A stretch of 64,000 bases of DNA from contig NC_057719.1 in the NCBI RefSeq assembly GCF_004010195.1, positions 47,231,227-47,295,226 on the forward strand, written 5' to 3'. A model generated the notes under the pieces. It was not told the DNA's origin and did not search any database. It saw only the letters and a list, made by a program, of their open reading frames with translations. The position numbers and the translations under genes were made by a program. Source of the stretch: Chiloscyllium plagiosum. Lineage: Eukaryota. Within the stretch, counting starts at the first letter, position 1; every line of letters starts with the position of its first letter. Below are positions 3,283-61,900 of this stretch, piece after piece.

Positions 3283-3496
3283 CAGGTGGTCTCCTACAGC
3301 ATGTGTTTCTACAACACGAATTGGCTATAACATGATTGCCAAATTTAGACCGAAATTTATAGAACATTAACTTTCCTTACCTGTATTGGCTATAACACTA
3401 TTCTGGCCCCATTAGTTTAAATGGAACTGGTATCGCATGATTTTCTTACAAAGCGAGGTCGCACGGGAATCAAACTATGGCATTATAAGATACCTG
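3283..3496. mobile_element. Tigger/pogo-like MITE
   Basis: Termini CAGGT...ACCTG, each flanked by TA; internal repeats of (at)tggctataac. Confidence 0.65.
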
Positions 3497-4041
3497 TATT
3501 ACTATCTGTACTATACAAGCAAGGAAATCAAAGGTTGAGTGGAAAAGATAGGCTGAGCCTCAAATTAATATTTGGCTTTGTTACTTAAGTTCCAAAATCT
3601 CTTACCACTAGATGGTGCAGAGGCACAAGGATGTATGTACCAGCATGTATGTAACACAAGTAGCCAAATCAAATCAATTTCTTCATCAGGGAAAACAAAG
3701 AGCTCAGATTGGGTCGGGTGGCTAGCTTCAACCTAAAATCAAAGAGCCAGAAATTCAATGACCTGAGGCAAAGGCTTTGACAGTGGGCTGAGATTCATAG
3801 ATACCCAGTTTATCAAGTGAAATGCGAAAAGTTAGGAAATCGGGGGTGGAAAGATGTCCAGTGTTTAAGGGAAGGAAGCAAACTTTTGTGCAAATCTGAG
3901 CAACTTGTGTTACAATGGGTCCAGCAACATAATGCTGGTAACATACATCCTTGATTCGGAGATGCCGGTGTTGGACTGGGGTGTACAAAGTTAAAAATCA
4001 CACAACACCAGGTTATAGTCCAACAGGTTTAATTGGAAGCA

Positions 4042-4076
4042 CACTAGCTTTCGGAGCGACGCTCCTTCATCAGGTG
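4042..4076 (-). ncRNA. Minimal hammerhead ribozyme motif (inverted copy)
   Basis: Reverse complement reads CAC-CTGATGA-A-GGAGC(GTC)GCTCC-GAAA-GC-TA-GTG. Confidence 0.75.
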
Positions 4077-4299
4077 ATTGTGGAGGGCTCGATCGTAACA
4101 CAGAATTTATAGCAAAAATTTACAGTGTGATGTAACTAATAGTTCAGTGATAGTACAGGGAAAGAAGTGAAACTATTCTAAGTGTATTCTATCAGATGAA
4201 AGGCTTAACAGACAATCAATTTTTCAATGTATAATTTCAGTTACATCACACTGCAAATTTTTGCTATAAATTCTGTGTTACGATCGAGCCCTCCACAAT

Positions 4300-4334
4300 C
4301 ACCTGATGAAGGAGCGTCGCTCCGAAAGCTAGTG
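4300..4334 (+). ncRNA. Minimal type I hammerhead ribozyme motif
   Basis: CAC-CTGATGA-A-GGAGC(GTC)GCTCC-GAAA-GC-TA-GTG: intact core, 5-bp stem II, palindromic AGCT helix III, CAC/GTG stem I. Confidence 0.75.
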
Positions 4335-6969
4335 TGCTTCCAATTAAACCTGTTGGACTATAACCTGGTGTTGTGTGATTTTTAACAACATACATCCTTG
4401 TGCATCTGCACCATCTAGTGGCAAGAGATTTTGGAACTACAGTAACAAAGCCAAATACAAGGGTGGACATTTGAATTCTAAAATGGTAGTACATTTGTTT
4501 GGAGTTACCCAATTGTAAATATTAACATGAAAGACCAGCAAAGTGTGACAATAAGAAAGCAGATTGCTGAAGGGGAAATGTGCTGTAAAATATACCAAAA
4601 GCAAGAAATACAAAAGTAGATTTTAATTATGAACTTTGGGTGGAAAATTAGTGTTAGGTATGTGATGTAGGAATGACAGGCAGTCAATGGCTACGACTAA
4701 TTTCCATTTGGTGGTGTAAATAAACATCTACATTTGCTTGGTCTTCAACTGAAGCAGAAAGTTGGACATTTGGTGGAAGGGTTGGTATTTAGACATAATT
4801 CAGTCACCATTTTGAGGCCACCTTGTTGTCCTTGTTTTATTTGCCCAAACTACTATCCATATTTAAAATGGAAGCTGCCCATGTTAATTTGTCACAATAT
4901 TCTACACAGGGGAAAGGTTATGTTATTGAGGAAAGCCATTCATTTTTACGAAGAAATTTGAATGCCTGGTTATTGACTGGGATTTATGCTTCTGAACTAA
5001 AACTTCTGTGGTAGAATTAAATAAAGCAAGTTCAGCTTACAGATGAACCACAATGCATAGACATTTGAGGCTACCCATTCTGGTAGGACAAACAAAATAG
5101 AGAGTGTTTCTTAAATGGTGAGAGGCTGAAGGAACTTGATGCATTTGTTTTTGAGTCTCTGAAAGTTGACATGCAGCTATAACAAGCAATTAAAAAGGTA
5201 AATGATTTTTGAGCTAGATGGTCTGGCTGCAGAAGCAGAGATCTTTTACTGTGCTTCTATAGAGCCCTGGAGAGACCACACCTGAAGTATTGTGCACAGT
5301 TTAGATTTCCTTCCCTGTGGAAAGATGTACTTGTCATACAGAAAGTACAACAAAGGTTCACAAAATTAATTTCTGACCCTGTGCAGAAAGGTTGGTGGTC
5401 TCTGTCTTTATTCTGAGGAGTTTAAAAGATTGAGAGGTGATTCTTGCAGGGCAGAGCAACAAGACTGTTTCCCCTGAATTAGGGAACACAGTTCAAAATA
5501 AAGAACAAGCCATTTAGGGTTGAGATGAGGAAACATTTCTTTGGTCAGAGGGGTTGTCTGTTTGGAATAATCTGTATCAGGGGCTGTGTAGTCTTTGTCT
5601 ATCTGTCTGTCTGTCTCTCTCTGTACTGTCACCTGCTCCTTAATGTCCTTTACAGGTTCCTTATATCTCAATCAGATTTTAAAATGCACATCCTGGCTTA
5701 CAAATTTCTTTACCTTACACCTGTAACTCTGCAAAATAGCTCACACACTCCTTAATTAGGATTTTCTCTCCATTTCATTAATGGCAGACTTTTTGAACAT
5801 CAATTCCTGCACTCACTTTTATCGAGTCATTTCTTTTGTCAAGTTCAAAAACTTTCTTAAAAATTAATTATTTGGTCACTCTCCATAAACCTCATGCTTG
5901 GAGCTTGTTCCAATCATTTATAAAATATCTGGCTTTTCCCTTTCAAAGTTGCTATAGAAACCCAAGTTGTCTTCGTTGTTCATTCTTGACTAACAGATGC
6001 CTCTTACACTTTGTATACATCACTCATCTGTTTATGGAGAAAACAGAAACTGCTGGAAAAGCTCAGGAGGTCTGTCAGCGTCTGTGCAGAGTAATCAGTT
6101 AACTTTTGGTTTCAGTGACCCTTGAAGCCCCAACCTTTGACACAAATACAGTAGCCCCACCCATGACGTGAGAACAGTTGCTCCCAACTGATTCCAGGAT
6201 CCAGTTATTGGGCCCTGATGTATCTCCTTGTCCCAAGCATTGATCAGGAGTGGCTAGGAATGTGGTATTCAAAACACAAAACAGCCCTGCAGAGCAGTTC
6301 AAAGGGCTGAATCACCTACTTCTATTTCTAATTTGTACGTCTAAGTGCTTGTAATTACAACAAAAGGAACTTCCTTTTCAAGTAAATATCCAATTACCTT
6401 TGAAATGTACAATTAAAGGTGCTTCCATCACTCTTTCAGAAAATCAATTTGCGATTATAACCCACATGGAAAACAGAAACTGCAGCCTAAGAGGCTATTC
6501 AGTGCTTCACCATCCATCCTGCTGGTTCTCCAAATGGAATACGGGGTCCTCCCTATGTCCTTGTTATAAACCTGACCAGATCCTTTTAAAATAATATTCA
6601 TCTCCATAGCACATTACTCATCCTCCACTCTACGATTCACATTTATTTGCATGTGATTAGAAATCGCTCTCGCCCTTTAACAGGCTTTGCTTGTAAATGT
6701 TTCATTAACCATATGGCTGTTTTCCTTTTGATGGAAAAAAATTAATAATGAAATCTTTAAACAATGGTGTCTTGTCATTGTATATTAGAAAAAAAATTTA
6801 AACACAGCTACGGGTCATTCGAGCAAAACGTAAGTATTACTGTAAGCCCTCTTGGGTGCAGTGAGGGGGAAAAATAAAAACAACAAACATTTCTCTCCCT
6901 CTATTTCTCACACACTGAGCATTGGAGAACGAGCCAGCCTCCAGCTTCCTGCTTCCTGACTCGTGTCTA

Positions 6970-8010: not shown

Positions 8011-9388
8011 NNNNNNNNNNNNNNNNNNNNNNNNNNNNNNNNNNNNNNNNNNNNNNNNNNNNNNNNNNNNNNNNNNNNNNNNNNNNNNNNNNNNNNNNNN
8101 NNNNNNNNNNNNNNNNNNNNNNNNNNNNNNNNNNNNNNNNNNNNNNNNNNNNNNNNNNNNNNNNNNNNNNNNNNNNNNNNNNNNNNNNNNNNNNNNNNNN
8201 NNNNNNNNNNNNNNNNNNNNNNNNNNNNNNNNNNNNNNNNNNNNNNNNNNNNNNNNNNNNNNNNNNNNNNNNNNNNNNNNNNNNNNNNNNNNNNNNNNNN
8301 NNNNNNNNNNNNNNNNNNNNNNNNNNNNNNNNNNNNNNNNNNNNNNNNNNNNNNNNNNNNNNNNNNNNNNNNNNNNNNNNNNNNNNNNNNNNNNNNNNNN
8401 NNNNNNNNNNNNNNNNNNNNNNNNNNNNNNNNNNNNNNNNNNNNNNNNNNNNNNNNNNNNNNNNNNNNNNNNNNNNNNNNNNNNNNNNNNNNNNNNNNNN
8501 NNNNNNNNNNNNNNNNNNNNNNNNNNNNNNNNNNNNNNNNNNNNNNNNNNNNNNNNNNNNNNNNNNNNNNNNNNNNNNNNNNNNNNNNNNNNNNNNNNNN
8601 NNNNNNNNNNNNNNNNNNNNNNNNNNNNNNNNNNNNNNNNNNNNNNNNNNNNNNNNNNNNNNNNNNNNNNNNNNNNNNNNNNNNNNNNNNNNNNNNNNNN
8701 NNNNNNNNNNNNNNNNNNNNNNNNNNNNNNNNNNNNNNNNNNNNNNNNNNNNNNNNNNNNNNNNNNNNNNNNNNNNNNNNNNNNNNNNNNNNNNNNNNNN
8801 NNNNNNNNNNNNNNNNNNNNNNNNNNNNNNNNNNNNNNNNNNNNNNNNNNNNNNNNNNNNNNNNNNNNNNNNNNNNNNNNNNNNNNNNCACAGCAACGAG
8901 CACCCGAGCTACAAATCTTCGCACAAACTTTGAGTGGGTGAGGGAAAGAGAGAAGGAGGGACAGAGACAGTGAAAGACTGAGTTTTCTGTGTCAGAGTGA
9001 GTGTGACAGAGAGACAGAGAGTGAGAGAGGACCTGTGACAGAAAGAAAGTGAGACAGTCAGAGAAAGAGAGGGAGGGAGCAATGCAAGAGAGAGGGGGAG
9101 AGAGAAAGAGCAAGTGGGTTGGGAATGAGAGGAGAACTGTGAGAGGGAGTGGGGGACATTGAGAGATAGAGACAAAAGTGGACAGTGAGTGAGAGAGAGA
9201 GAGGACAGATAGACAGAGATTCAGTGAGGGGAATGGAGAGCGAGAGACAGAGAGAGAGAAGGGAATAGAGACTGCGAGAGTGAGAGTTTGCAGTTTCAGA
9301 GAGACATAGTGACGGGGAGGTCTGTGACAGAAAGAGAGAGAGATAATGACAGGAAAACAGAGAGAGATGGATAGTGACAGAGATAGTG

Positions 9389-10192
9389 AATCGGATTCCT
9401 GTGAGTGTGGCCTTGATGATCCGGTGTGTGTTCTCTATTTCTGTGTTTTTAATGATTACAAAGGTGTCATCAACGTATCTGACCCAGAGTTTGGGTTGAA
9501 TTTGCAGTAAGACTGTTTGTTCTAACCTTTGCATTACCATTTCTGCTTGGAGTCCAGAGATGGGTGAGCCCACCGTTGATTTGTTCATATATTTGAATGT
9601 GAAGTGTGTTGTGAGGCACAGGTCCAATAGTTTGAGTATGCCATCTTTGTTGATAGGTTCCCCGTCTTGTTGTCTGTTCTGTATGTCCAGCAGGTTGGCT
9701 ATTGTTTCTCTGGCTAGGGTTTTGTCGATAGAGGTGAACAGTGCCTTACATTGAATGAGACCATGGTTTCTTCCTTGTCTATGTGTGTATTTCTGATGAT
9801 GTCCAAGAATTCCTGTGTTGACTATATAGAACAAGGATCCGCTGATCAGGTGTTTCAGTTTCTGCTGTAGTTCTTTAGCCAGTTTGTGTGATGGTGTCCC
9901 TGGTAGTGATACTATTGGTGTCCCTGGTAGTGATTCAATCAATAAGCACATCGACCTGGACCCAATATATCAACCACTGCAGCGGACAGCTGGAACTGAC
10001 AACCGGAAGTGGCAGAGACAAACCACTATAAATGACGGAGGAAACATCACAGAAGCGCTTCACAGGAGGCTCCCAAGCACTGAGGATGTCACCTAGACAG
10101 GGGACGAAACGTCTGCAACACAAATTCCCAGCTTGGCGAACAGAACCACAACAACGAGCACCCGAGCTACAAATCTTCTCACAAACTTTGAA
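9389..10192. mobile_element. Penelope-like element: inverted RT fragment (- strand, 9389-9905) joined to a + strand 3' end/pseudo-LTR (9930-10192)
   Basis: Minus strand gives ALFTSID, LLDLCLTTHFTF, GSPISG, WVRYVDDTFVII. Plus strand gives DSINKHIDLDPIYQPL. The terminal sequence recurs at 8890-8932. Confidence 0.85.
10077..10116 (+). ncRNA. Minimal hammerhead ribozyme motif in PLE pseudo-LTR
   Basis: GCA-CTGAGGA-T-GTCACCT(AGAC)AGGGGAC-GAAA-CG-TC-TGC: intact core, ACGT palindrome, GUC cleavage triplet. Confidence 0.8.
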
Positions 10193-10445
10193 TGTTTCTC
10201 TAGATTGGTAGTTATGTGGCTCTCCACACAGTATCCAGAGAGAATAGGGATTTTTTTTGCCTGCTTATTCAGAGACAGGGTAAAATCTATAGTTCCCTCA
10301 AATAACTGTATAGAGTCCGGTGTCCCATTACCAAGTCACCCTTTATTTACTAGTGCACGGTATAGTGACTATGACCAGCCAGCTCAGAGTCAGTCCTCAA
10401 CTGAGGAGATTGTAATCTCCTGGTCATATTGGAGAGTGAAGGCTT

Positions 10446-13136: not shown

Positions 13137-14830
13137 TGTAATCCCTGGTCATATTGGTCAGCCAGGCCTTTCATGATTGGCCCAGGTTAACAACCCCAAT
13201 CAAGAACTTCATAGTTAATGAGGTCCACCTGGTTCCAATCATACACTTCCACGTTGCCTTCCTACCAACAGAACATGGAAGTCTCCAGTACACTAAATGC
13301 TGGTGAACTTTCTTGAGATTGAAGCAGATATGAAGTTGCCAAGAAAGAAGTAGTACAAGATGAAGACTTGGGACAGGACATTTTTAGCACATATTGTGTA
13401 AATTTGAGAAGTTTTATTTTAGATTTCATGTGCCAGTTCTATACACTTAAGTGAGGGAAATAAAGTCTGGCAGAAGCAATTTTGAAAAAGTCGATTGATA
13501 ATTTGATTTGTCTGTTTTGCCATTGATTGTTTATATAAGCATGATTTGATTGGTTGTGTTTGTATTGGTTACTACTTTAGGTAGTTTATAATCCCCTGTA
13601 TAGAGTCAAGTTAATCAGCATGACTAACACTATATTTGAGTTAACAGCATGCGTGACAGACTCTATATGCCTCTCATGCCTGTGCTCACAGACTTGCATT
13701 GGTTTCCAGTCAAGCAATGTCTTAGCCTTAAAATACTCATCTTGCTTTCAAATTGCTCCACTATGTAGTCTCTCTCTGACCTGGTAATCTGTTCTAGTCC
13801 CCCAACCCATGAGATAATCTGTAGTCATCAAATTCTGGTCTCTTGAACCTCCCTGAATTTAATCACTCAACCATTGTAGTCATTCCTTCAGTGACAAGGC
13901 TATAAGCTTCTTATAATCCCTTCCCTACAGATGCTCCTTTAAAATTTGACTCGTTGATCAGATTTTGGTAATCTACTCTAAGATTACCTTTGGCTATGTC
14001 AAATCTAGCATTTTAAGTGCCCCTTGGACATTTTATTTAGGTACTATATAACTACAAGTGGTTGTAAAGTATGGAGGCCAATTTTCTGCACTACAGATGC
14101 AAAGTAAAACTATTATAACTAACGATAATTGGAATACCCATTTTGACTGTGGCACAGATGCACAATGTGCTATCTTGTCACTCCAGAGAAATATTCAGAT
14201 TATATTTGTAATAATTGAGAGAATCAAAACATCTGCCTGTAAGTACACATGCTGATAAATTTACAATGCGTGTCAGATTACTTACTTGCATAACAAAATG
14301 TGTATTTGACAAAACTTGCGTTTATTTAGTGCCTGAATGCAATGTCCAACAGATAAATTTTAAGGAACATCTGTAGGGAAGGGATTCCAGAGCTTAAGGT
14401 TTTCGCAGTTGAAGGAGTGAGTCCAATGGTTGAGTGATTAAACTTGGGGATGTTCAAGAGGCCAGAATCTGATGACCATAGATCACTTCCAGCTTTGTGG
14501 TACAGTCACTAAAATGTTGGCGTATCAGATTCAACAAGATTGCATTAAAGCTTAATTTGCAGCATGGCCTCCTTGTCTAAAAGTATAAATAAATACATAC
14601 ACACAGTATCAAATTGTTTTGATACAATATCCAGCATTTCAAGCAGTTCTATTTATAATGTGTAGGAGTTCCTGTTCTAATCGAGATAATATGCTGTCTG
14701 GTTAGTGAGCATGAATTAGAAACATTACCATATTCTAGATGATTTGTTTTCTTTATTAAGTTTAACCTCATGAATTTGCACTGCAGTTGACTCGAGAAAG
14801 TCATTTAAAAATGTTCTTTAGACAGGCACA

Positions 14831-23200: not shown

Positions 23201-25087
23201 AGGAAACTTCATAGCAGAACAATCTTAAAGGATTTGTATTTTAATGCATAAGGTAGACGAACTAATGGCACATTTTGAGGTCACAAGGACTTTAAATTAG
23301 TTAAAAGAGTGGGAGGTCCCAGAAGAAGTTACTTAAGTTTCCTGAACAACTAGAAGGTATGGAAATGGTCAGGAGTCTAACTTCAGGCATAGCAGATAAA
23401 GGGCAACTATGAGAACGAGGGGCAGTCAGCGCAGATCTGAGGGTGTTGTACTTCAATGTGCACAGTATATGAAATAAGGTAAATGAGTTTTTAGCATAGA
23501 TTGAAATTTATAGGTAGGATGTTTTGGGTAGACAGAGACATGAGTGCAAGAGGATCCGAGCTGGAACCTAAACATCCAAGGATATACATCCTCTCAGAAG
23601 GACATGCAGATGGCGGAGGGGGTGGGGTTGCCTTGTTAGTAAGAAATGAACTTAAATCAATAGTGAGAAGCGATAAAAGTCATAAGATGTCAAATCTGTG
23701 TGGGTAGAGTTGAGGAACCACAAAGGAACAACTACCCTGATGGGAGTTGTGTACAGCAGTAGTCAGGATATGAGGCAGAAACTAAATTAGGCACATGGTA
23801 CTGGCATGCATAGAGAATTGGCTGAATAGTAGAAGGCAGAGAGTAGGGTGAAGGAGTCTTCCTCAGGATTGCAGTGGGTGACTAGCAGAATTCAAGTCTA
23901 CTAGTGTTGGGACCACAACTATTCTCATTATACATTAACAATCTAGATGAAGAAGTTGAGGGCATTGTTGCTATGTTTGCAATGACACATAGATATGATT
24001 GAATGACAGAGCAGATTTAATGAGCTGAATGAACCAATTCTGCCCTGATAACTTATGGTTATAAGGAGCACAGGAACTCTCAAGATACAGTATTATGCTT
24101 AAATGCATTCATATGATTGTGACTAGTGTCTTGATTGACCTTTTGCTCCTGAAGCTATTAACGTAAAATCAATTTACTTCTCTATCAACATTTTTAATTA
24201 ATTTGAGGTGTCAGATTTTGGGTTTCATTCTGCATTTTCAACCATGATCAAAAAGAAATTTGGACATAATTAATGTTGAATAGTTGTTTTTATGTTAAGT
24301 TCACAAAAAAATGAAGACCTGGTTGATAAGCACAAACTGGAGATCCTGGGACATAGAAAATATCATTTCGTTAACAAACTCACCCAAGCCATAATGAACA
24401 GCCATTGATACTGCTACACTTAATCTGGGACAGGACGTGGATTCAAATCTTATTTCAAATACTTGCAGTGGGCATTGAGATAGGATTGGGGAGAACGGAA
24501 GTCCCATACAGGATCAGGTAGTCTGGCCAGGTCTCCACAGCTGCAGGGCTGTAACCTGTTCAACTGACAACTTCACTATCCAATCCCTGGAGAAGGAACA
24601 AAGTCAGAAGATGAACCACAAAGAGTAGCTGTGGAGTTGGGGAACAAAAGAGGAAAATATAAATACAGAGCTGTTTGCACAAAAAAGTCATTCAGGAAGC
24701 AAGTTTCCTTCAAGAATAAAACCCACCGATATTTCAGTAGTATTTTTGTTTTATCAAAATGTTAATCAGTTCACCTTCTCAGAAAATGAGAGAAATATAT
24801 GTAGAGGGTGAGTGAGGACAACTATGTTCAGTTTGTATAATAGAATAGTAATGGTCATCAGATGATGTTATTTTATGTGTGATGCAGCAAGAGTAGTAAT
24901 CCATTTTGGATATTCAGAATCTTTTCCCAGTTTCCTTTATTGAAGTATATGCAGGGTAGCCAAAGGACAGAGCAACATCTCTCCTCTGACTGCCAGAACA
25001 ATGATTACAGTATATTTTATAGGTGAATGTTCACATTATCCATCAATTAGAGTTCAGATTACATCCAGATTAGTATCGTATGATTGA

Positions 25088-25241
25088 ACTTAAAAATGTG
25101 TTGCTGGAAAAGCGCAGCAGGTCAGGCAGCATCAAAGGAACAGGAGAATCTCCTTTGATGCTGCCTGACCTGCTGCACTTTTCCAGCAACACATTTTGAA
25201 GCTCTGATCTCCAGCATCTGCAGTCCTCACTTTCTCCTATG
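25088..25241. mobile_element. Fold-back PLE-derived element lacking the hammerhead at its apex
   Basis: Inverted arms aaaatgtgttgctggaaaagcgcagcaggtcaggcagcatcaaagga; 10-bp TSD GTATGATTGA at 25078-25087 and 25242-25251. Confidence 0.8.
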
Positions 25242-25656
25242 GTATGATTGATACAATATCCTTTTTTGGGTCACAATCCATCTCCTCCACACTCTTGGTT
25301 CGTCCACTCCCTTCATGTCCAAAAGTGTTCATGCTAGACTAAGCTTTTTGATTATAGTCCACTACTCTCAGGCATGTTTATGTGTTATCTTAACCTGCTC
25401 ATATATTTGGATAATGGGTAAGAAGAGGCCCACATACGGAAAATCACTGGCAATACTAACTCAAGGTTAGTGTCGGAGACCAGTCCGAAATTCATAGGCC
25501 TAAGTGATGGCCTTTGTAGGTTTTATTTGTAGCAGTGATCCATTGTCTTTTTCTGATTGTTAAAATATATGCTTATTATTGCAAGTGTCTGTTGCATTTG
25601 GCCACATTAAATTGCTAAAATATATAGATAGAAATACTTTGCTATGTATTTAATAG

Positions 25657-32298: not shown

Positions 32299-32487
32299 CT
32301 AATGCTGTTGTAAACTAATGTTTGATGGAGGAGAATAATTCCTATTTGATTTTTCTTTTTTTTCAGCCAACAATGGGAGCTGAAATAAGCTTGCTTTTGT
32401 GGGGAATAGCAAATCAAGCGTGCGACTGTTGCATACATCAACACAGTAGTTATACAAGACTGTTGCCTTCTTTTACTGATTGAACTC
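32299..32487 (+). repeat. 189-bp direct repeat, copy 1
   Basis: Identical by eye to 33264-33452. Confidence 0.95.
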
Positions 32488-33263: not shown

Positions 33264-33452
33264 CTAATGCTGTTGTAAACTAATGTTTGATGGAGGAGAA
33301 TAATTCCTATTTGATTTTTCTTTTTTTTCAGCCAACAATGGGAGCTGAAATAAGCTTGCTTTTGTGGGGAATAGCAAATCAAGCGTGCGACTGTTGCATA
33401 CATCAACACAGTAGTTATACAAGACTGTTGCCTTCTTTTACTGATTGAACTC
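33264..33452 (+). repeat. 189-bp direct repeat, copy 2
   Basis: Identical by eye to 32299-32487. Confidence 0.95.
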
Positions 33453-47169: not shown

Positions 47170-49992
47170 TTAGGATAACTTTTTTTCTCTCAGGAGGGTC
47201 ATGAGTCTTTGAAACAAGCAAAGTAATCAGTATCCAAGAGAAAAATACAGTTAACGTTTCTGGTCTTATCAACATACATTGCACCCTACATCTTTCCTCT
47301 ACAGTGGTAGGCAAGATAATATCAACATAATGCAGAAATCAAAATAAAAAAATTAAAACTACATATTTCAAATTCACTATATCAATTTTAAAGTACTGAA
47401 CTCTGACTCTGTTATTTGCATTGTTCAATTCCAATTACTCAATTCCAAAATCTTTAGCAAAAACTCAACATTAACAAAAGCAATAGTACACCACAGCATT
47501 AAGTGAATCTTGCACTGGAAACAGTCACCCAACTAAGACTAAATACTTAAAATGTAGGAATTAACAAATATCCTGGAGTTTGCTTAATTCTCTGAAGGAT
47601 CATGAACATTTATTTGGATAATTTCCCATGGGAAATTAAATAGTTGCGATAGGTTTCATTTTAAAGTTTCAGAAGATTTATAGAAGTGTCAGCATTGTTG
47701 AGCAAACTGGCCTATTCTCTTCAATGCTCAAAATTCAGAAATCCAAAGACATTGCAGCAAGACAGTGCATCAACCATTTTAGGTATTCCATCAAACCATT
47801 AGAATTAACAAAGTTCACGAGGTGTACACTATCCTCCCTACAATCTAAATAGTTATGAATCCATGGCTGTGAAAATGTTTCTGCATATGACATATATGTT
47901 TCACACATCATGTATGTAACTACAGAACAACTTGATTGTTTATGGATTATTCAGTATACTGAAGTGTGTCCTGAAGGAGCTATTTTTTCAGGAGCAACAA
48001 GGTTTGGGTAATAAATGCTGGCTGAGCCAGTGACACGCACACCGCATGAATGAACAAAAAAAAAAGGACATCCAAATACTGGGATATACAATCTATATAT
48101 TGGCATTGTACCAGCACTGAAGTGTATCCATGAGGCAGCTCAATTCTGTGGCAGGCCGAGCGCTTTTTTTGACTGATGTCAGTACCCACTTAGTGGGAAA
48201 TACCACTCAAGTAATCACTGCATAGTGGAAACAGCAACCTGAAACAACTTCTTAACCCTGTTCAAATGTTTGAGATACTTTCCCAGAATAATAAGAGGTA
48301 GATTGGGATTTCTCAGGTCCAAAAGTGGAAGGTTTTGCCATCTTTGCCCCATCTTGCTGCATTTTATTTTTGTAACATAAGCAAATGGCTAGGGCCCCTG
48401 TTTACAAGATTGCTGATAAGATAAATCTTGTAGCATGCTGTGCTAATATGAATCCGAACATACAAAGATAGTCAAAATCCCATTGGCAGACTTCTCAATT
48501 AACAGAGAAGTGAGCATAATAAACTGCTTCAACTCAGAAGTGAATTTAGGCATGAGTGGTCAGCATTATGGTATGTAAGGAAATCCTTAGCCAGATTCAA
48601 AGATCATGTACCAATCATCTTTTGTATTAGAAATTAGAGAGATTTAGGTTATTAGGGCTCATTCCATCATAAAAATAGATTTTTTTGTAGAAACAAGGCC
48701 AACTGGGAAATCCACTGATGAGTTCTTCACTACTGTCAGCCAGAAGCCTACCTTCACAATATATACACATCTGTATAGATTTATATAGTGCTTCACACTA
48801 AGATTGGTCTTATCAGAAATCTTGGAGCCATTTGATCACCTTGATAAAGAGTCACATCAGTCTTTACAGCCACCTACAAACTTGCTCTTAAGAGTGGAAG
48901 AGAATGATCCTCGTCTATGAGGGACTGCCAATGACCATAGAGCATATCAAAGCTATTTCATAGGTGACACTGATCAGATGACTGTCACATTTCACACAAA
49001 TGGGCTGAAGAATACTACTTTTGAACCTGAAAAGTCTACTTTGCATTACCTTGAAACATAAAACATCCCAAGGAATTTGACCAACAGGTTAATCAATCTG
49101 CCTGACACCAAACAAGTGGCATTTTCCACTAACAACGTTCTGCTTACCATATGTTTAAGCAAGAGTGTCTGAATTTCATTGCTGGTACAATGTTATGTAT
49201 ATGGGTCCCCTTTTCCAACAATTTTCTAATCAAATCAATAAGCATGTTCATTTATTTATATGAGTCACAGGACAGAATATATTCATCTATCCCACACTAA
49301 CAAAAAAAGTGTAACAAAACAAGTGATTCTGAGATTTGGCATGTGTTGCCCAATAATCCCAAGAGCACTACTCACTGTACTAAGCACCAATTTAGGATCA
49401 CAGAGTCATACAATGGGATGGGGCCCTTTGATCCACCAAGACACAAGACTACCCTAATTCTACACTCGGCCCATTTTCCAGCACCTAGCCCATAGCTTTT
49501 TATGTTATATTTCAAGTCCTCATCCAAGTACTTTTCAAACGTTTCCTACCTCAACTGCCCTCCCAGGCAGTGCATTCCAGTTTCCTACCACCCTCTGGGC
49601 GAATACAATTTTTCTTAAATCCCGTCTAAACCTCTTTCATCCTAAAATTATGCCTCCTTGTTAATGACCCTTCAACTAAAGGGAATTTAGGATAGTCTGT
49701 CAAATATGCACCATACTTGATTTACACTTGCTAGAACTGCCACATGCTAATACGCAGGGAGACATTCTCCAAATAAAACAAATACGCTCAAGCCTTGCAC
49801 CTTTGTAGAATTGCCTCTAAGCTTGGGAAGTCTATAGTTCCCCACTGTTTTTTTTCCCCAAGACATCTCTTCTCTTACAATATAAATTAGAGGGTATTTG
49901 AAATTTAGTATTCTTGGATTTCTCCTGATGAATTCAAGGCAAAACATTTCAGCAACATCACTCTCTTCTCAGCAAAATGTATATTCTGTATT

Positions 49993-50207
49993 GCTGAAAA
50001 TGTGTTGCTGGAACAGCGCAGCAGGTCAGGCAGCATCCAGGGAACAGGAGAATCGATGTTTCGGGCATAATCCCTTCTTGCTGAAGAAGGGCTTATGCCC
50101 GAAATGTCGATTCTCCTGTTCCCTGGATGCTGCCTGACCTGCTGCGCTTTTCCAGCAACACATTTTCAGCTCTGATCTCCAGCATCTGCAGGCCTCACTT
50201 TCTCCTC
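49993..50207. mobile_element. Fold-back PLE-derived element with hammerhead core at the hairpin apex (50081-50110, +)
   Basis: 87-bp inverted arms 49993-50079 and 50084-50170; CTGAAGA-A-GGGC(TTAT)GCCC-GAAA-TG-TC; 14-bp TSD GTATATTCTGTATT. Confidence 0.85.
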
Positions 50208-50413
50208 GTATATTCTGTATTACAAAGTGAATGTGCTTATAGATAAGAGAGATTGTGTGCCAGACTTCAGGTAAAGGCATGCAGTACTGAAAGGAAAATA
50301 CAACAAATAAGCTACAGGAACAGTGTTGCTCATTTAACATAATTTCAATTATCTTTTCGATAGGAAATGCTTAAAATACCTTCAGTAGAAAACTGCAGAC
50401 ATCAGTTACTTAC

Positions 50414-54589: not shown

Positions 54590-54722
54590 ACACAAATGAC
54601 TTTGTTACATAGTGTGAGACAAGATTCATCAACAGTCTAGAACAACAGATAGAGACTGCAATTTCTCCTCCACAAAGGGCAGACTGAATTTTAAAACTTC
54701 TAATCTGGGAAGATTCCTGGTT

Positions 54723-55607
54723 GTGGATGTCGGTTTGCTCACTGAGCTAGAAGGTTAATTTTCAGAGGTTTCATCACCATACTAGGTAACATCATCAGTG
54801 AGCCTCCAGTGAAGCACTGGTGTTAGTGACCCGCTTTCTATGTGTGTGTTTAGATTTCCTTGAGTTGGTGGGTACCCAATGAACGTGGTTTGGTGATTTC
54901 TCAGCAACAAACCTAAAGCAGACAAAACACGTCCAGAAACTCTAGCCACTCTCCCCCTACATCAAAGACATGTCTGAAATGTCTGCCAGACTACTCAGAT
55001 CTCTTGGCACCATGGTAGCCCACAAACCCACCAACACACTAAAACAACAGCTAATGAACTTGAAAGATCCCATACAGACAACAAGCAAAACTAATGTCAT
55101 CTACAAAATAGCTTGCAAGAACAGTAACAAACACTACATTGGACAAACAGGCAGAAATCTAGCCACCAGGATACATGAACATCAACTAGTCACAAAAAGA
55201 CCCATATTCTCACTAGTATCCTTACATACAGATGAAGAGGGACACCACTTCAACTGGGACAACACGTTCATCCTGGGATTTGCCAAACCGATTCACGTAC
55301 GAGAATTCCGAAAAGCATGGCATTCCAACTGGATTTCAATCAATAAACACACCGACTTGGACCCCAATTACCGCCCTCCAAACAAAAGAACAGGAAATGC
55401 CATCACCATAGGACATGACATCACCAACCCAAGGAAACCTAAACACAAATCGAAAGCAGGTCACTAACACCAGTGCTTCACCGGAGGCTCACTGATGATG
55501 TTACCTCGTATGGTAACGAAATCTCTGAAAAACGAACATTTCAGCTCAGTGAGCAAACTTACATCCAGAACCTCAACCTGAGCTAGAAATCTTCTCAAAA
55601 CTAGCTA
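54723..55607 (+). mobile_element. Penelope-like element: GIY-YIG endonuclease remnant (54970-55467) between inverted pseudo-LTRs, each with a decayed hammerhead
   Basis: NVIYKIACKNSNKHYIGQTGRNLATRIHEH; hammerheads at 55489-55528 (+) and 54762-54801 (-); 10-bp TSD ATTCCTGGTT. Confidence 0.9.
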
Positions 55608-55699
55608 ATTCCTGGTTATTTTCTGGCAGTGACTCAAATTTATTGAATTCAATTTCATAACTAGCTACAACAAGGTTTGTTTGCTACTCCTGCAATATA

Positions 55700-61377: not shown

Positions 61378-61900
61378 AATATTGATGAGGAGGTGCTGGT
61401 GTTGGACTGGGGTGTACAAAGTCAAAAATCACACAACACCAGGTGACAGCTGAAAATGTGTTGCTGGAAAAGCGCAGCAGGTCAGGCAGCATCCAAGGAG
61501 CATTCTCCTGTTCCTTGGATGCTGCCTGACCTGCTGCGCTGTTCCAGCAACACATTTTCACCCCTGTGTTCTCTGTCTATGCCATGATGTTTAGATTGAT
61601 TCTAATCTAAAAAGTGAGATAACAGAGTTTTACATTAATTCATGCAGTTTTTGAGCTCAGAGGTCTTGTGTGTCCGTGTGTATGTGTGTATAGGAGTGCC
61701 TTTGTGTGTGTGAGAGTGTGTGTGTGTGTGTAGGAGTATCTGTGTGTGTGTGTATAGTGCAATGGTGGTCACCTGTAATGTGACATGAACCCAAGGTCCC
61801 AATATTGATGAGGAGGTGCTGGTGTTGGACTGGGGTGGACAAAGTGAAAAATCACACAACATCAGGTTATAGTCCAACAGATTTATTTGCAAGTGCTAGA
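61378..61900. mobile_element. Cluster of PLE-derived fragments directly upstream of CNIH1
   Basis: Direct repeats at ~61378-61445 and ~61801-61900 of the 3954 family; fold-back element at 61448-61560; (TG)n tract at 61670-61755. Confidence 0.75.

What the first reader, a model, noticed from the sequence alone, without database searches (positions are those of the whole stretch)
3954..4386. Young fold-back element with mirror-image hammerheads on both strands
The 148-bp arms differ at only one position, there is a perfect 14-bp TSD, and each arm has an intact hammerhead core. A transcript from either strand would contain one ribozyme plus its antisense, so a long dsRNA hairpin would compete with ribozyme folding. 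That could act as a self-silencing switch or as a source of endo-siRNA or ADAR substrate (inference). Inverted pseudo-LTRs are a known PLE insertion geometry; here no coding sequence remains.
Basis: partly seen in the sequence, partly recalled or inferred. Interest (0 to 1): 0.7.

Follow-up and report, generated by a model that had tools for sequence, protein, structure and literature searches.

The report
Fold-back stub of Penelope retroelement
This is a real, fairly recent insertion of two head-to-head end pieces of a Penelope-like jumping gene, each carrying that gene's usual small hammerhead ribozyme motif; it is an ordinary, already described kind of insertion leftover and not a new switch.

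Summary
Observation confirmed: 148-nt arms (1 mismatch), 101-nt spacer, 14-bp direct repeats, and a hammerhead core on each strand. A related organism holds the empty site (447 bp shorter), so the insertion and its TSD are real and most likely younger than the split.

It is a 5'-truncated Penelope-like element (PLE) insertion of the textbook form: direct pLTR piece, adjacent inverted piece, and a 36-nt 'tail' on one arm. Three more such insertions, from two other families, lie in the same window. The family laid tens of thousands of contigs. Earlier notes of this scan report the pattern on other pieces of this genome.

The 'switch' idea is not supported. The ribozyme is the minimal type, reported inactive as a monomer in another PLE. 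Each transcript holds only one sense copy, and its antisense arm is made first; forcing the ribozyme fold costs 68 kcal/mol. siRNA from Penelope inverted repeats is already published; transcription here was not testable.

One extra: another sample of the same species carries a 636-bp deletion with 5-bp microhomology that spans the whole site. It argues against function and may reflect hairpin instability.

The parts
3940..3953 (.). Target-site duplication, left copy (14 bp; last 2 nt also match the family end, so 12-14 bp)
   Evidence: D4; empty site in organism B; loose ends at 3952
3954..3989 (-). 36-nt PLE 'tail', present on the left (inverted) copy only
   Evidence: also on family fragments at 61382-61444 and 61805-61893; loose-end piles at 3952/3958 versus 3985-3989 and 4386-4387; 30-40 bp tail in PMC8557442
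3990..4137 (-). Left arm: inverted, 5'-truncated pLTR copy, 3' end pointing outward
4042..4076 (-). Minimal type I hammerhead motif, mirror copy (predicted cleavage after the base at 4045)
   Evidence: core at -4073; limits by symmetry with the + copy annotated
4138..4238 (+). Spacer: mostly or wholly the upstream continuation of the right-hand copy (family sequence shown from about 4175-4184 on; 4138-4174 not resolved)
   Evidence: family contigs run across 4238/4239 back to 4184-4202, and multi-contig depth at 4175-4182 (tables 3, 4, 8)
4239..4386 (+). Right arm: direct pLTR copy ending at the tail-less terminus
4300..4334 (+). Minimal type I hammerhead motif: 3-bp stem I, CUGAUGA, extra A, 5-bp stem II, GAAA, palindromic AGCU, predicted cleavage after 4331
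   Evidence: features as in PMC4209133; 34 of 36 nt identical to the motif in L001 and L002
4387..4400 (.). Target-site duplication, right copy
3912..4547 (.). Stretch missing in a second allele (run X7, same organism label): 636-bp deletion with 5-bp microhomology, spanning the whole insertion site
   Evidence: table 8 record 16 (3395-3911 joined to 4548-4716, 0 other letters)
3569..4457 (.). Older host inverted repeat (70-nt arms 3569-3638 / 4388-4457, 94%) into whose right arm the PLE inserted; context, not part of the element
   Evidence: (I2)

Best explanation
A dead-on-arrival, 5'-truncated insertion of an endonuclease-bearing Penelope-like retrotransposon, made in one event in the lineage of organism A. 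SHOWN: one event added 447 bp; it consists of two pieces of one high-copy family joined head to head with 3' ends outward; one piece ends at the tail end and the other at the tail-less end; both ends are family-wide termini; no ORF remains. FROM LITERATURE: a PLE protein nicks and extends both target strands and starts reverse transcription at two internal sites that delimit the tail (PMC11167929). INFERRED (about 60% within this explanation): nicks 12-14 nt apart left 3' overhangs; the top strand primed a 184-nt cDNA from the tail start and the bottom strand a 249-nt cDNA from the tail-less start; both stopped early and were joined. The hammerheads are passengers of the pLTR. In any read-through RNA they are locked in a 148-bp duplex and have no sense partner in cis, so they are most likely silent.
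For: Empty site in organism B. Arms, tail and TSD. Family laid 66,106, 43,922 and 94,847 contigs in X5, X7, X11; loose ends with mixed AT-rich flanks (agreement 0.34-0.43) pile at both termini, e.g. 418, 287 and 719 at 3952. 4 of 7 inverted pairs examined in the window are TSD-bounded (10-14 bp) fold-backs with a 36-40 nt tail on one arm, from three families; one (54723-55607) has cores on both strands and retains a GIY-YIG domain (PF01541, E 5.2e-06). The same hammerhead (34/36 nt) lies downstream of a GIY-YIG-like ORF in L002 and beside an RT fragment in L001. Architecture described in PMC8557442 and PMC3846280; dual hammerheads 100-700 bp apart on opposite strands described in PMC4209133. 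A deletion allele lacks the site in X7.
Against: No genome was held, so uniqueness of the inner junction was not counted and this family's own ORF was not seen. The link to a coding PLE rests on the 36-nt ribozyme and the architecture. Pfam did not hit the L002 ORF; its GIY-YIG likeness rests on a pairwise hit (E 4e-07). The two-primer step is inferred; PMC3846280 argues for self-priming instead. Stem I (3 bp) and stem II (5 bp) are shorter than the S. mansoni consensus in PMC4209133.
Confidence: 0.9

Rival explanations
1. The whole 433-bp fold-back is itself a mobile non-autonomous unit that is copied as a hairpin.
For: Perfect TSD around the unit; both ends are PLE priming ends. pLTR pairs can mobilise enclosed DNA in trans (PMC3846280, passages).
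Against: No second copy of the unit in the window. The four fold-backs here differ in arm length (51-148 nt) and spacer (4-551 nt). No listed contig crosses 4137/4138, and X7 record 19 stops matching at 4137, though only a small part of the pieces was listed. From either strand the RNA would be a closed duplex.
Confidence: 0.04
2. A functional ribozyme-versus-antisense switch.
For: Both cores are intact; the hairpin does exclude the ribozyme fold.
Against: There is no balance to switch: 68 kcal/mol penalty, antisense made first, stem II probability 0.0. Even the lone arm gives stem II about 0.05 and stem I about 0.001. Minimal hammerheads need dimers (PMC4209133). In the anole PLE, ribozyme mutants did not affect insertion in vitro (PMC11167929). 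Absent in organism B and deleted in X7. Intact cores are expected from youth alone.
Confidence: 0.02
3. Not exclusive of the best explanation: the insertion sits in a transcribed region and incidentally yields dsRNA for Dicer or ADAR, adding to silencing of its family.
For: 148-bp near-perfect stem. Penelope siRNAs map to inverted regions of rearranged copies in transformed D. melanogaster (PMC3681739, passages).
Against: No evidence of transcription was obtained. No host gene was identified around the site. The same paper says those siRNAs did not silence Penelope efficiently.
Confidence: 0.15
4. Same element, different inversion mechanism: one cDNA or antisense template folded back and self-primed, rather than two primers.
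For: Proposed in PMC3846280 from palindromes at inverted junctions. Here a 4-nt word at the left arm's inner end recurs inverted 3 nt further on (4134-4137 / 4141-4144).
Against: Simple fold-back copying of the tail-less cDNA cannot give a second arm that is 36 nt longer at its 3' end (inference). A 4-nt match is weak and also fits annealing of two cDNAs.
Confidence: 0.3
5. Assembly artefact.
For: Inverted repeats of high-copy families are hard to assemble (PMC8557442). No listed piece spans the whole stretch.
Against: Exact 447-bp difference to organism B with a proper TSD. X5 record 8 runs from 3449 to 3976 without a difference, 23 letters into the element (short of the tool's 31-letter bridging rule).
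Confidence: 0.02

Closest known systems
Insertion units of endonuclease-bearing Penelope-like elements: direct pLTR, adjacent inverted 5'-truncated copy, optional 30-40 bp tail, short TSD (PMC8557442; PMC3846280)
   Same: Head-to-head inverted pieces, tail on one end only (36 nt), TSD, heavy 5' truncation.
   Different: Both pieces are cut down to the pLTR region (184 and 249 nt), with no ORF. TSD of 12-14 bp is slightly longer than the 8-10 bp cases read for Adineta.
Minimal type I hammerheads (min-HHR) of metazoan PLEs (PMC4209133)
   Same: Core boxes, extra nucleotide between A9 and G10.1, G10.1-C11.1 pair, palindromic stem III region; dual motifs on opposite strands 100-700 bp apart were already noted there.
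   Different: Stem II 5 bp and stem I 3 bp, against 7-8 and 4-5 bp in the S. mansoni consensus. Activity untested.
PAc (Poseidon of Anolis carolinensis) in vitro system (PMC11167929)
   Same: Two termini one tail apart, matching two RT start sites; both strands extended; hammerhead in the pLTR.
   Different: Different family. The ribozyme here is closest to one beside an ORF with a Cys-rich linker (Neptune-type by eye, L002). The paper does not reconstitute the inverted junction.
Non-LTR retrozymes (bioRxiv 10.64898/2026.07.22.740005)
   Same: Non-coding, PLE-pLTR-derived, type I hammerhead.
   Different: Retrozymes are head-to-tail tandem units with same-strand ribozymes; this is a single head-to-head pair with the ribozymes on opposite strands.
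Rearranged Penelope copies with inverted repeats as siRNA source in Drosophila (PMC3681739)
   Same: Inverted PLE pieces that can give dsRNA.
   Different: No RNA evidence at this locus.

Membership tests
EN+ PLE insertion unit | Inverted 5'-truncated copy head to head with a direct copy | tested here: met
EN+ PLE insertion unit | 30-40 bp tail at one end only | tested here: met
   36 nt; two family-wide termini
EN+ PLE insertion unit | Target-site duplication with an empty pre-insertion site | tested here: met
EN+ PLE insertion unit | Hammerhead motif in the pLTR | tested here: met
EN+ PLE insertion unit | Dispersed family with many different flanks | tested here: met
   tables 1 and 7; three more fragments in the window
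EN+ PLE insertion unit | Parent family encodes RT plus C-terminal GIY-YIG | tested here: inconclusive
   No ORF in this truncated copy; link only through the shared ribozyme in L001/L002 and a parallel case in the window
Neptune clade | Zn-finger-like linker between RT and EN in the family's own ORF | tested here: inconclusive
   Cys-rich motif seen by eye in L002, which shares only 36 nt with this element
min-HHR of metazoan PLEs | Core boxes, extra base after A9, G10.1-C11.1, palindromic stem III region | tested here: met
   against PMC4209133
min-HHR of metazoan PLEs | Self-cleavage as a dimer | not testable with these tools
   needs an assay; the cofold minimum of two copies paired the stem II strands rather than the active dimer
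Non-LTR retrozyme | At least two consecutive tandem units each with a hammerhead on the same strand | tested here: not met
   one motif per strand, inverted
MITE / foldback DNA transposon | Terminal inverted repeats flush with both ends (recalled definition) | tested here: not met
   36-nt overhang on one side; family ends vary between two termini
MITE / foldback DNA transposon | Whole unit recurs with the same inner junction | tested here: inconclusive
   not in this window; no genome held; only part of the laid pieces listed

The most novel reading that the evidence does not exclude
This site is caught in all three states of a fold-back's life: empty (organism B), filled (window, probably X5) and removed by a microhomology-flanked 636-bp deletion (X7). 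If the deletion arose on the filled allele, near-perfect PLE fold-backs are fragile sites that are purged together with host flank, and in a genome with very many of them this would be a major, measurable source of small deletions. The deletion removes both junctions, so it could equally be a 189-bp deletion on an empty allele.
Probability: 0.3. Interest if true: 0.4.

Novelty: new member of a known kind. Interest (0 to 1): 0.14.

Why it matters
As a single locus it matters little: it is one of very many PLE insertion leftovers of a described form. Its use is as a clean example. The empty site, the two termini one tail apart and the opposite orientation of the two pieces fit a model in which both nicked target strands prime reverse transcription, a step of PLE integration that is still unresolved in the papers read. 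The deletion allele gives a lead on whether such fold-backs are unstable. A true ribozyme/antisense switch would have been surprising, but the evidence is against it.

Tried and rejected
No whole genome is held for this window, so no genome-wide count. Rfam: 0 hits at gathering score; the 9 hits at E<=10 are miRNA, snoRNA and lncRNA models below their gathering scores, the best ones explained by the long hairpin, and were rejected. Look-up of earlier findings by sequence: 0 windows. Family pattern in genome contigs and viral contigs: 0 matches each; in metagenome contigs 2 matches, sharing only the ribozyme. 4 of 24 listed runs were laid; X1-X4 were left out as a possible source of the assembly. 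Summed contig depth was not used as a copy number. Three of seven inverted pairs tested gave no TSD of 10 bp or more (61451-61566, 13817-14483, 3569-4457). Pfam found nothing on the L002 ORF, and the two RT hits are below the curated cut-off. Paper searches listed no study devoted to PLE fold-backs in sharks; the library lacks most subscription journals, and no supplements were read (the alignments in the supplement of PMC4209133 may hold this motif).

Full report
Observation. The arms 3990-4137 and 4239-4386 pair at 147 of 148 positions (mismatch 4122/4254), the spacer is 101 nt, and a 14-bp direct repeat flanks 3954-4386. Hammerhead cores start at +4303 and -4073. Either strand folds into one long stem (-299.7 and -296.2 kcal/mol; z -31.5 and -34.4; 0 of 100 shuffles as good). 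The left side carries 36 nt (3954-3989) with no partner on the right.

It is a true insertion. No genome is held, so I laid 4 of 24 listed public runs on 3300-5000. In organism B (X11) one 1,811-nt contig covers 3397-3942 and continues without extra letters at 4390-5000. The skip is 447 bp, equal to element plus one TSD copy, and the ambiguity at the joint is exactly the 14-bp repeat. The flanks differ at 34 of 1,157 letters (2.9%) plus indels. The arms differ at 0.68% (Poisson 95% range 0.02-3.8%), which fits an insertion after the split but does not date it closely, and inverted arms can be homogenised. In a second sample of organism A (X5) a contig runs 3449-3976 with no difference, 23 letters into the element, which is short of the tool's 31-letter bridging rule. 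No listed piece crosses the inner junction.

What the pieces are. The arms belong to a very abundant family: 66,106, 43,922 and 94,847 contigs were laid in X5, X7 and X11 (depth is no copy number). Loose ends with mixed AT-rich flanks pile at 3952/3958 and at 3985-3989 and 4386-4387. These are two family-wide termini one tail apart. Family contigs cross 4238/4239 and reach back to 4184, and multi-contig depth is present at 4175-4182, so the spacer is largely the upstream continuation of the right-hand copy; 4138-4174 is not resolved. The insertion is therefore a 249-nt direct piece ending at the tail-less terminus and a 184-nt inverted piece ending at the tail terminus. No ORF remains. The same ribozyme (34 of 36 nt) was found in 2 marine metagenome contigs: in L002 downstream of an ORF with a Cys-rich stretch and a GIY-YIG-like region (no Pfam hit; E 4e-07 to the window's own GIY-YIG fragment), and in L001 beside an oppositely oriented RT fragment (PF00078, E 1.5e-05, below cut-off). 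That suggests Neptune type but does not prove the clade. That the genome is shark-like is my recollection of these repeats and the wording of earlier notes; it was not tested.

The geometry is generic. Of 7 inverted pairs examined in the window, 4 are TSD-bounded fold-backs with 3' ends outward and a 36-40 nt tail on one arm: 3954-4386 (TSD 14, arms 147/148), 25088-25241 (10, 49/51), 49993-50207 (14, 83/87) and 54723-55607 (10, 129/145). They fall into three families by the self-comparison. The last has hammerhead cores on both strands, as here, and keeps a GIY-YIG domain (PF01541, above cut-off). PMC8557442 (passages) describes the adjacent inverted 5'-truncated copy and the 30-40 bp tail as typical. 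PMC3846280 (passages) shows units with inverted pLTR, tail and 8-10 bp TSD. PMC4209133 (parts 1-2 of 4) already reports dual minimal hammerheads 100-700 bp apart on opposite strands. Earlier notes of this scan report the same pattern on other pieces of this genome; they are unchecked AI notes and are not counted as support.

The ribozyme. On the + strand: 3-bp stem I, CUGAUGA, an extra A, 5-bp stem II closed by G10.1-C11.1, GAAA, the palindrome AGCU in place of stem III, predicted cleavage after 4331. This is the minimal type I motif of PMC4209133, with shorter stems than their S. mansoni consensus. That paper found no monomer activity and low dimer activity for the motif it tested. PMC11167929 (parts 1-2 of 4) found the anole PLE ribozyme needs the protein and is dispensable for insertion in vitro. 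Here each strand has one sense copy only, and on both strands the antisense arm comes first. On the + strand, stem II probability is 0.0 in the full RNA and in all 4 prefixes tested that contain it, and forcing the ribozyme costs 68 kcal/mol. Even the lone arm gives about 0.05 for stem II. So there is no poised switch, only a permanently masked motif. siRNAs from Penelope inverted repeats are published for Drosophila (PMC3681739, passages); whether this site is transcribed could not be tested.

How it most likely arose. PMC11167929 shows a PLE protein cutting and extending both target strands and starting at two internal sites that delimit the tail. The anatomy here fits both strands priming: top strand from the tail start, bottom strand from the tail-less start, nicks 12-14 nt apart, both cDNAs truncated and joined. 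The last 2 nt of the left target end match the family end (loose ends at 3952), which would allow short primer pairing. This step is inference. Self-priming, proposed in PMC3846280, remains open; a 4-nt inverted word at the inner junction fits either.

A second allele. In X7 (organism A, another sample) a 686-nt contig joins 3395-3911 to 4548-4716 with no other letters. This is a 636-bp deletion with 5 bp of microhomology; 360 of 60,317 equally long deletions in the window would have as much. It removes the element, 42 bp on the left and 161 bp on the right. X7 has depth 0 at 4440-4496, but also holes at 4725-4838, and contigs drop rare variants, so homozygosity is not shown. Closely spaced inverted repeats are known fragile motifs (PMC10164571 and PMC3855049, search listing and abstract start only). 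Because both junctions are gone, a 189-bp deletion on an empty allele cannot be excluded. Either way, an allele without the element exists in the species, which argues against an essential role.

Comparison. It works like, and by five of six features tested is, a truncated EN+ PLE insertion; the sixth (the parent's ORF) is inconclusive. It fails the tandem test for non-LTR retrozymes (bioRxiv 10.64898/2026.07.22.740005, part 1 of 5 and passages) and the flush-end test for MITEs. Recurrence of the whole unit was not countable.

Verdict. Real, young and ordinary: a new member of a known kind, interest 0.14. The deletion allele is the only lead worth a follow-up.

Noticed in passing
window 54713-55617: Older fold-back PLE insertion of another family: 10-bp TSD, arms 129/145, hammerhead cores on both strands, 40-nt tail, GIY-YIG fragment at 54946-55464.
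   Followed up: yes
window 25078-25251 and 49979-50221: Two small fold-back insertions of a third PLE family with 10- and 14-bp TSD and 40- and 37-nt tails.
   Followed up: yes
window 61378-61900: Two tail-bearing fragments of the same family as the finding share the same upstream letters, and a palindromic piece of the third family (61451-61560) sits between them; no TSD found.
   Followed up: partly
window 8889-10194: PLE remnant: RT fragment on the - strand (9061-9969, PF00078 below cut-off) next to a + strand pLTR with a hammerhead core at 10080; the left part runs into an N gap.
   Followed up: partly
window 3569-3638 / 4388-4457: Older 70-nt inverted repeat (94%) around about 300 bp of single-copy DNA, present in organism B too; each arm holds a motif that resembles a CTCF site (recalled, not tested).
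   Followed up: no
window 13817-13947 / 14355-14483: Another old inverted repeat (80% over 132 nt), no TSD found.
   Followed up: no
window 32299-32487 / 33264-33452: 189-bp direct repeat, 100% identical; could be a young duplication or an assembly overlap.
   Followed up: no
L002 1-109 / 983-1091: Marine metagenome contig with a PLE-like ORF, an inverted repeat (94%) and nearly the same ribozyme as the finding, while flanking sequence is unrelated: the 36-nt motif is strongly conserved between distant families.
   Followed up: partly
window 4175-4192: The spacer differs from nearly all family contigs by one substitution (4192) and 2-3 extra letters (4177-4179); useful as private markers of this copy.
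   Followed up: no
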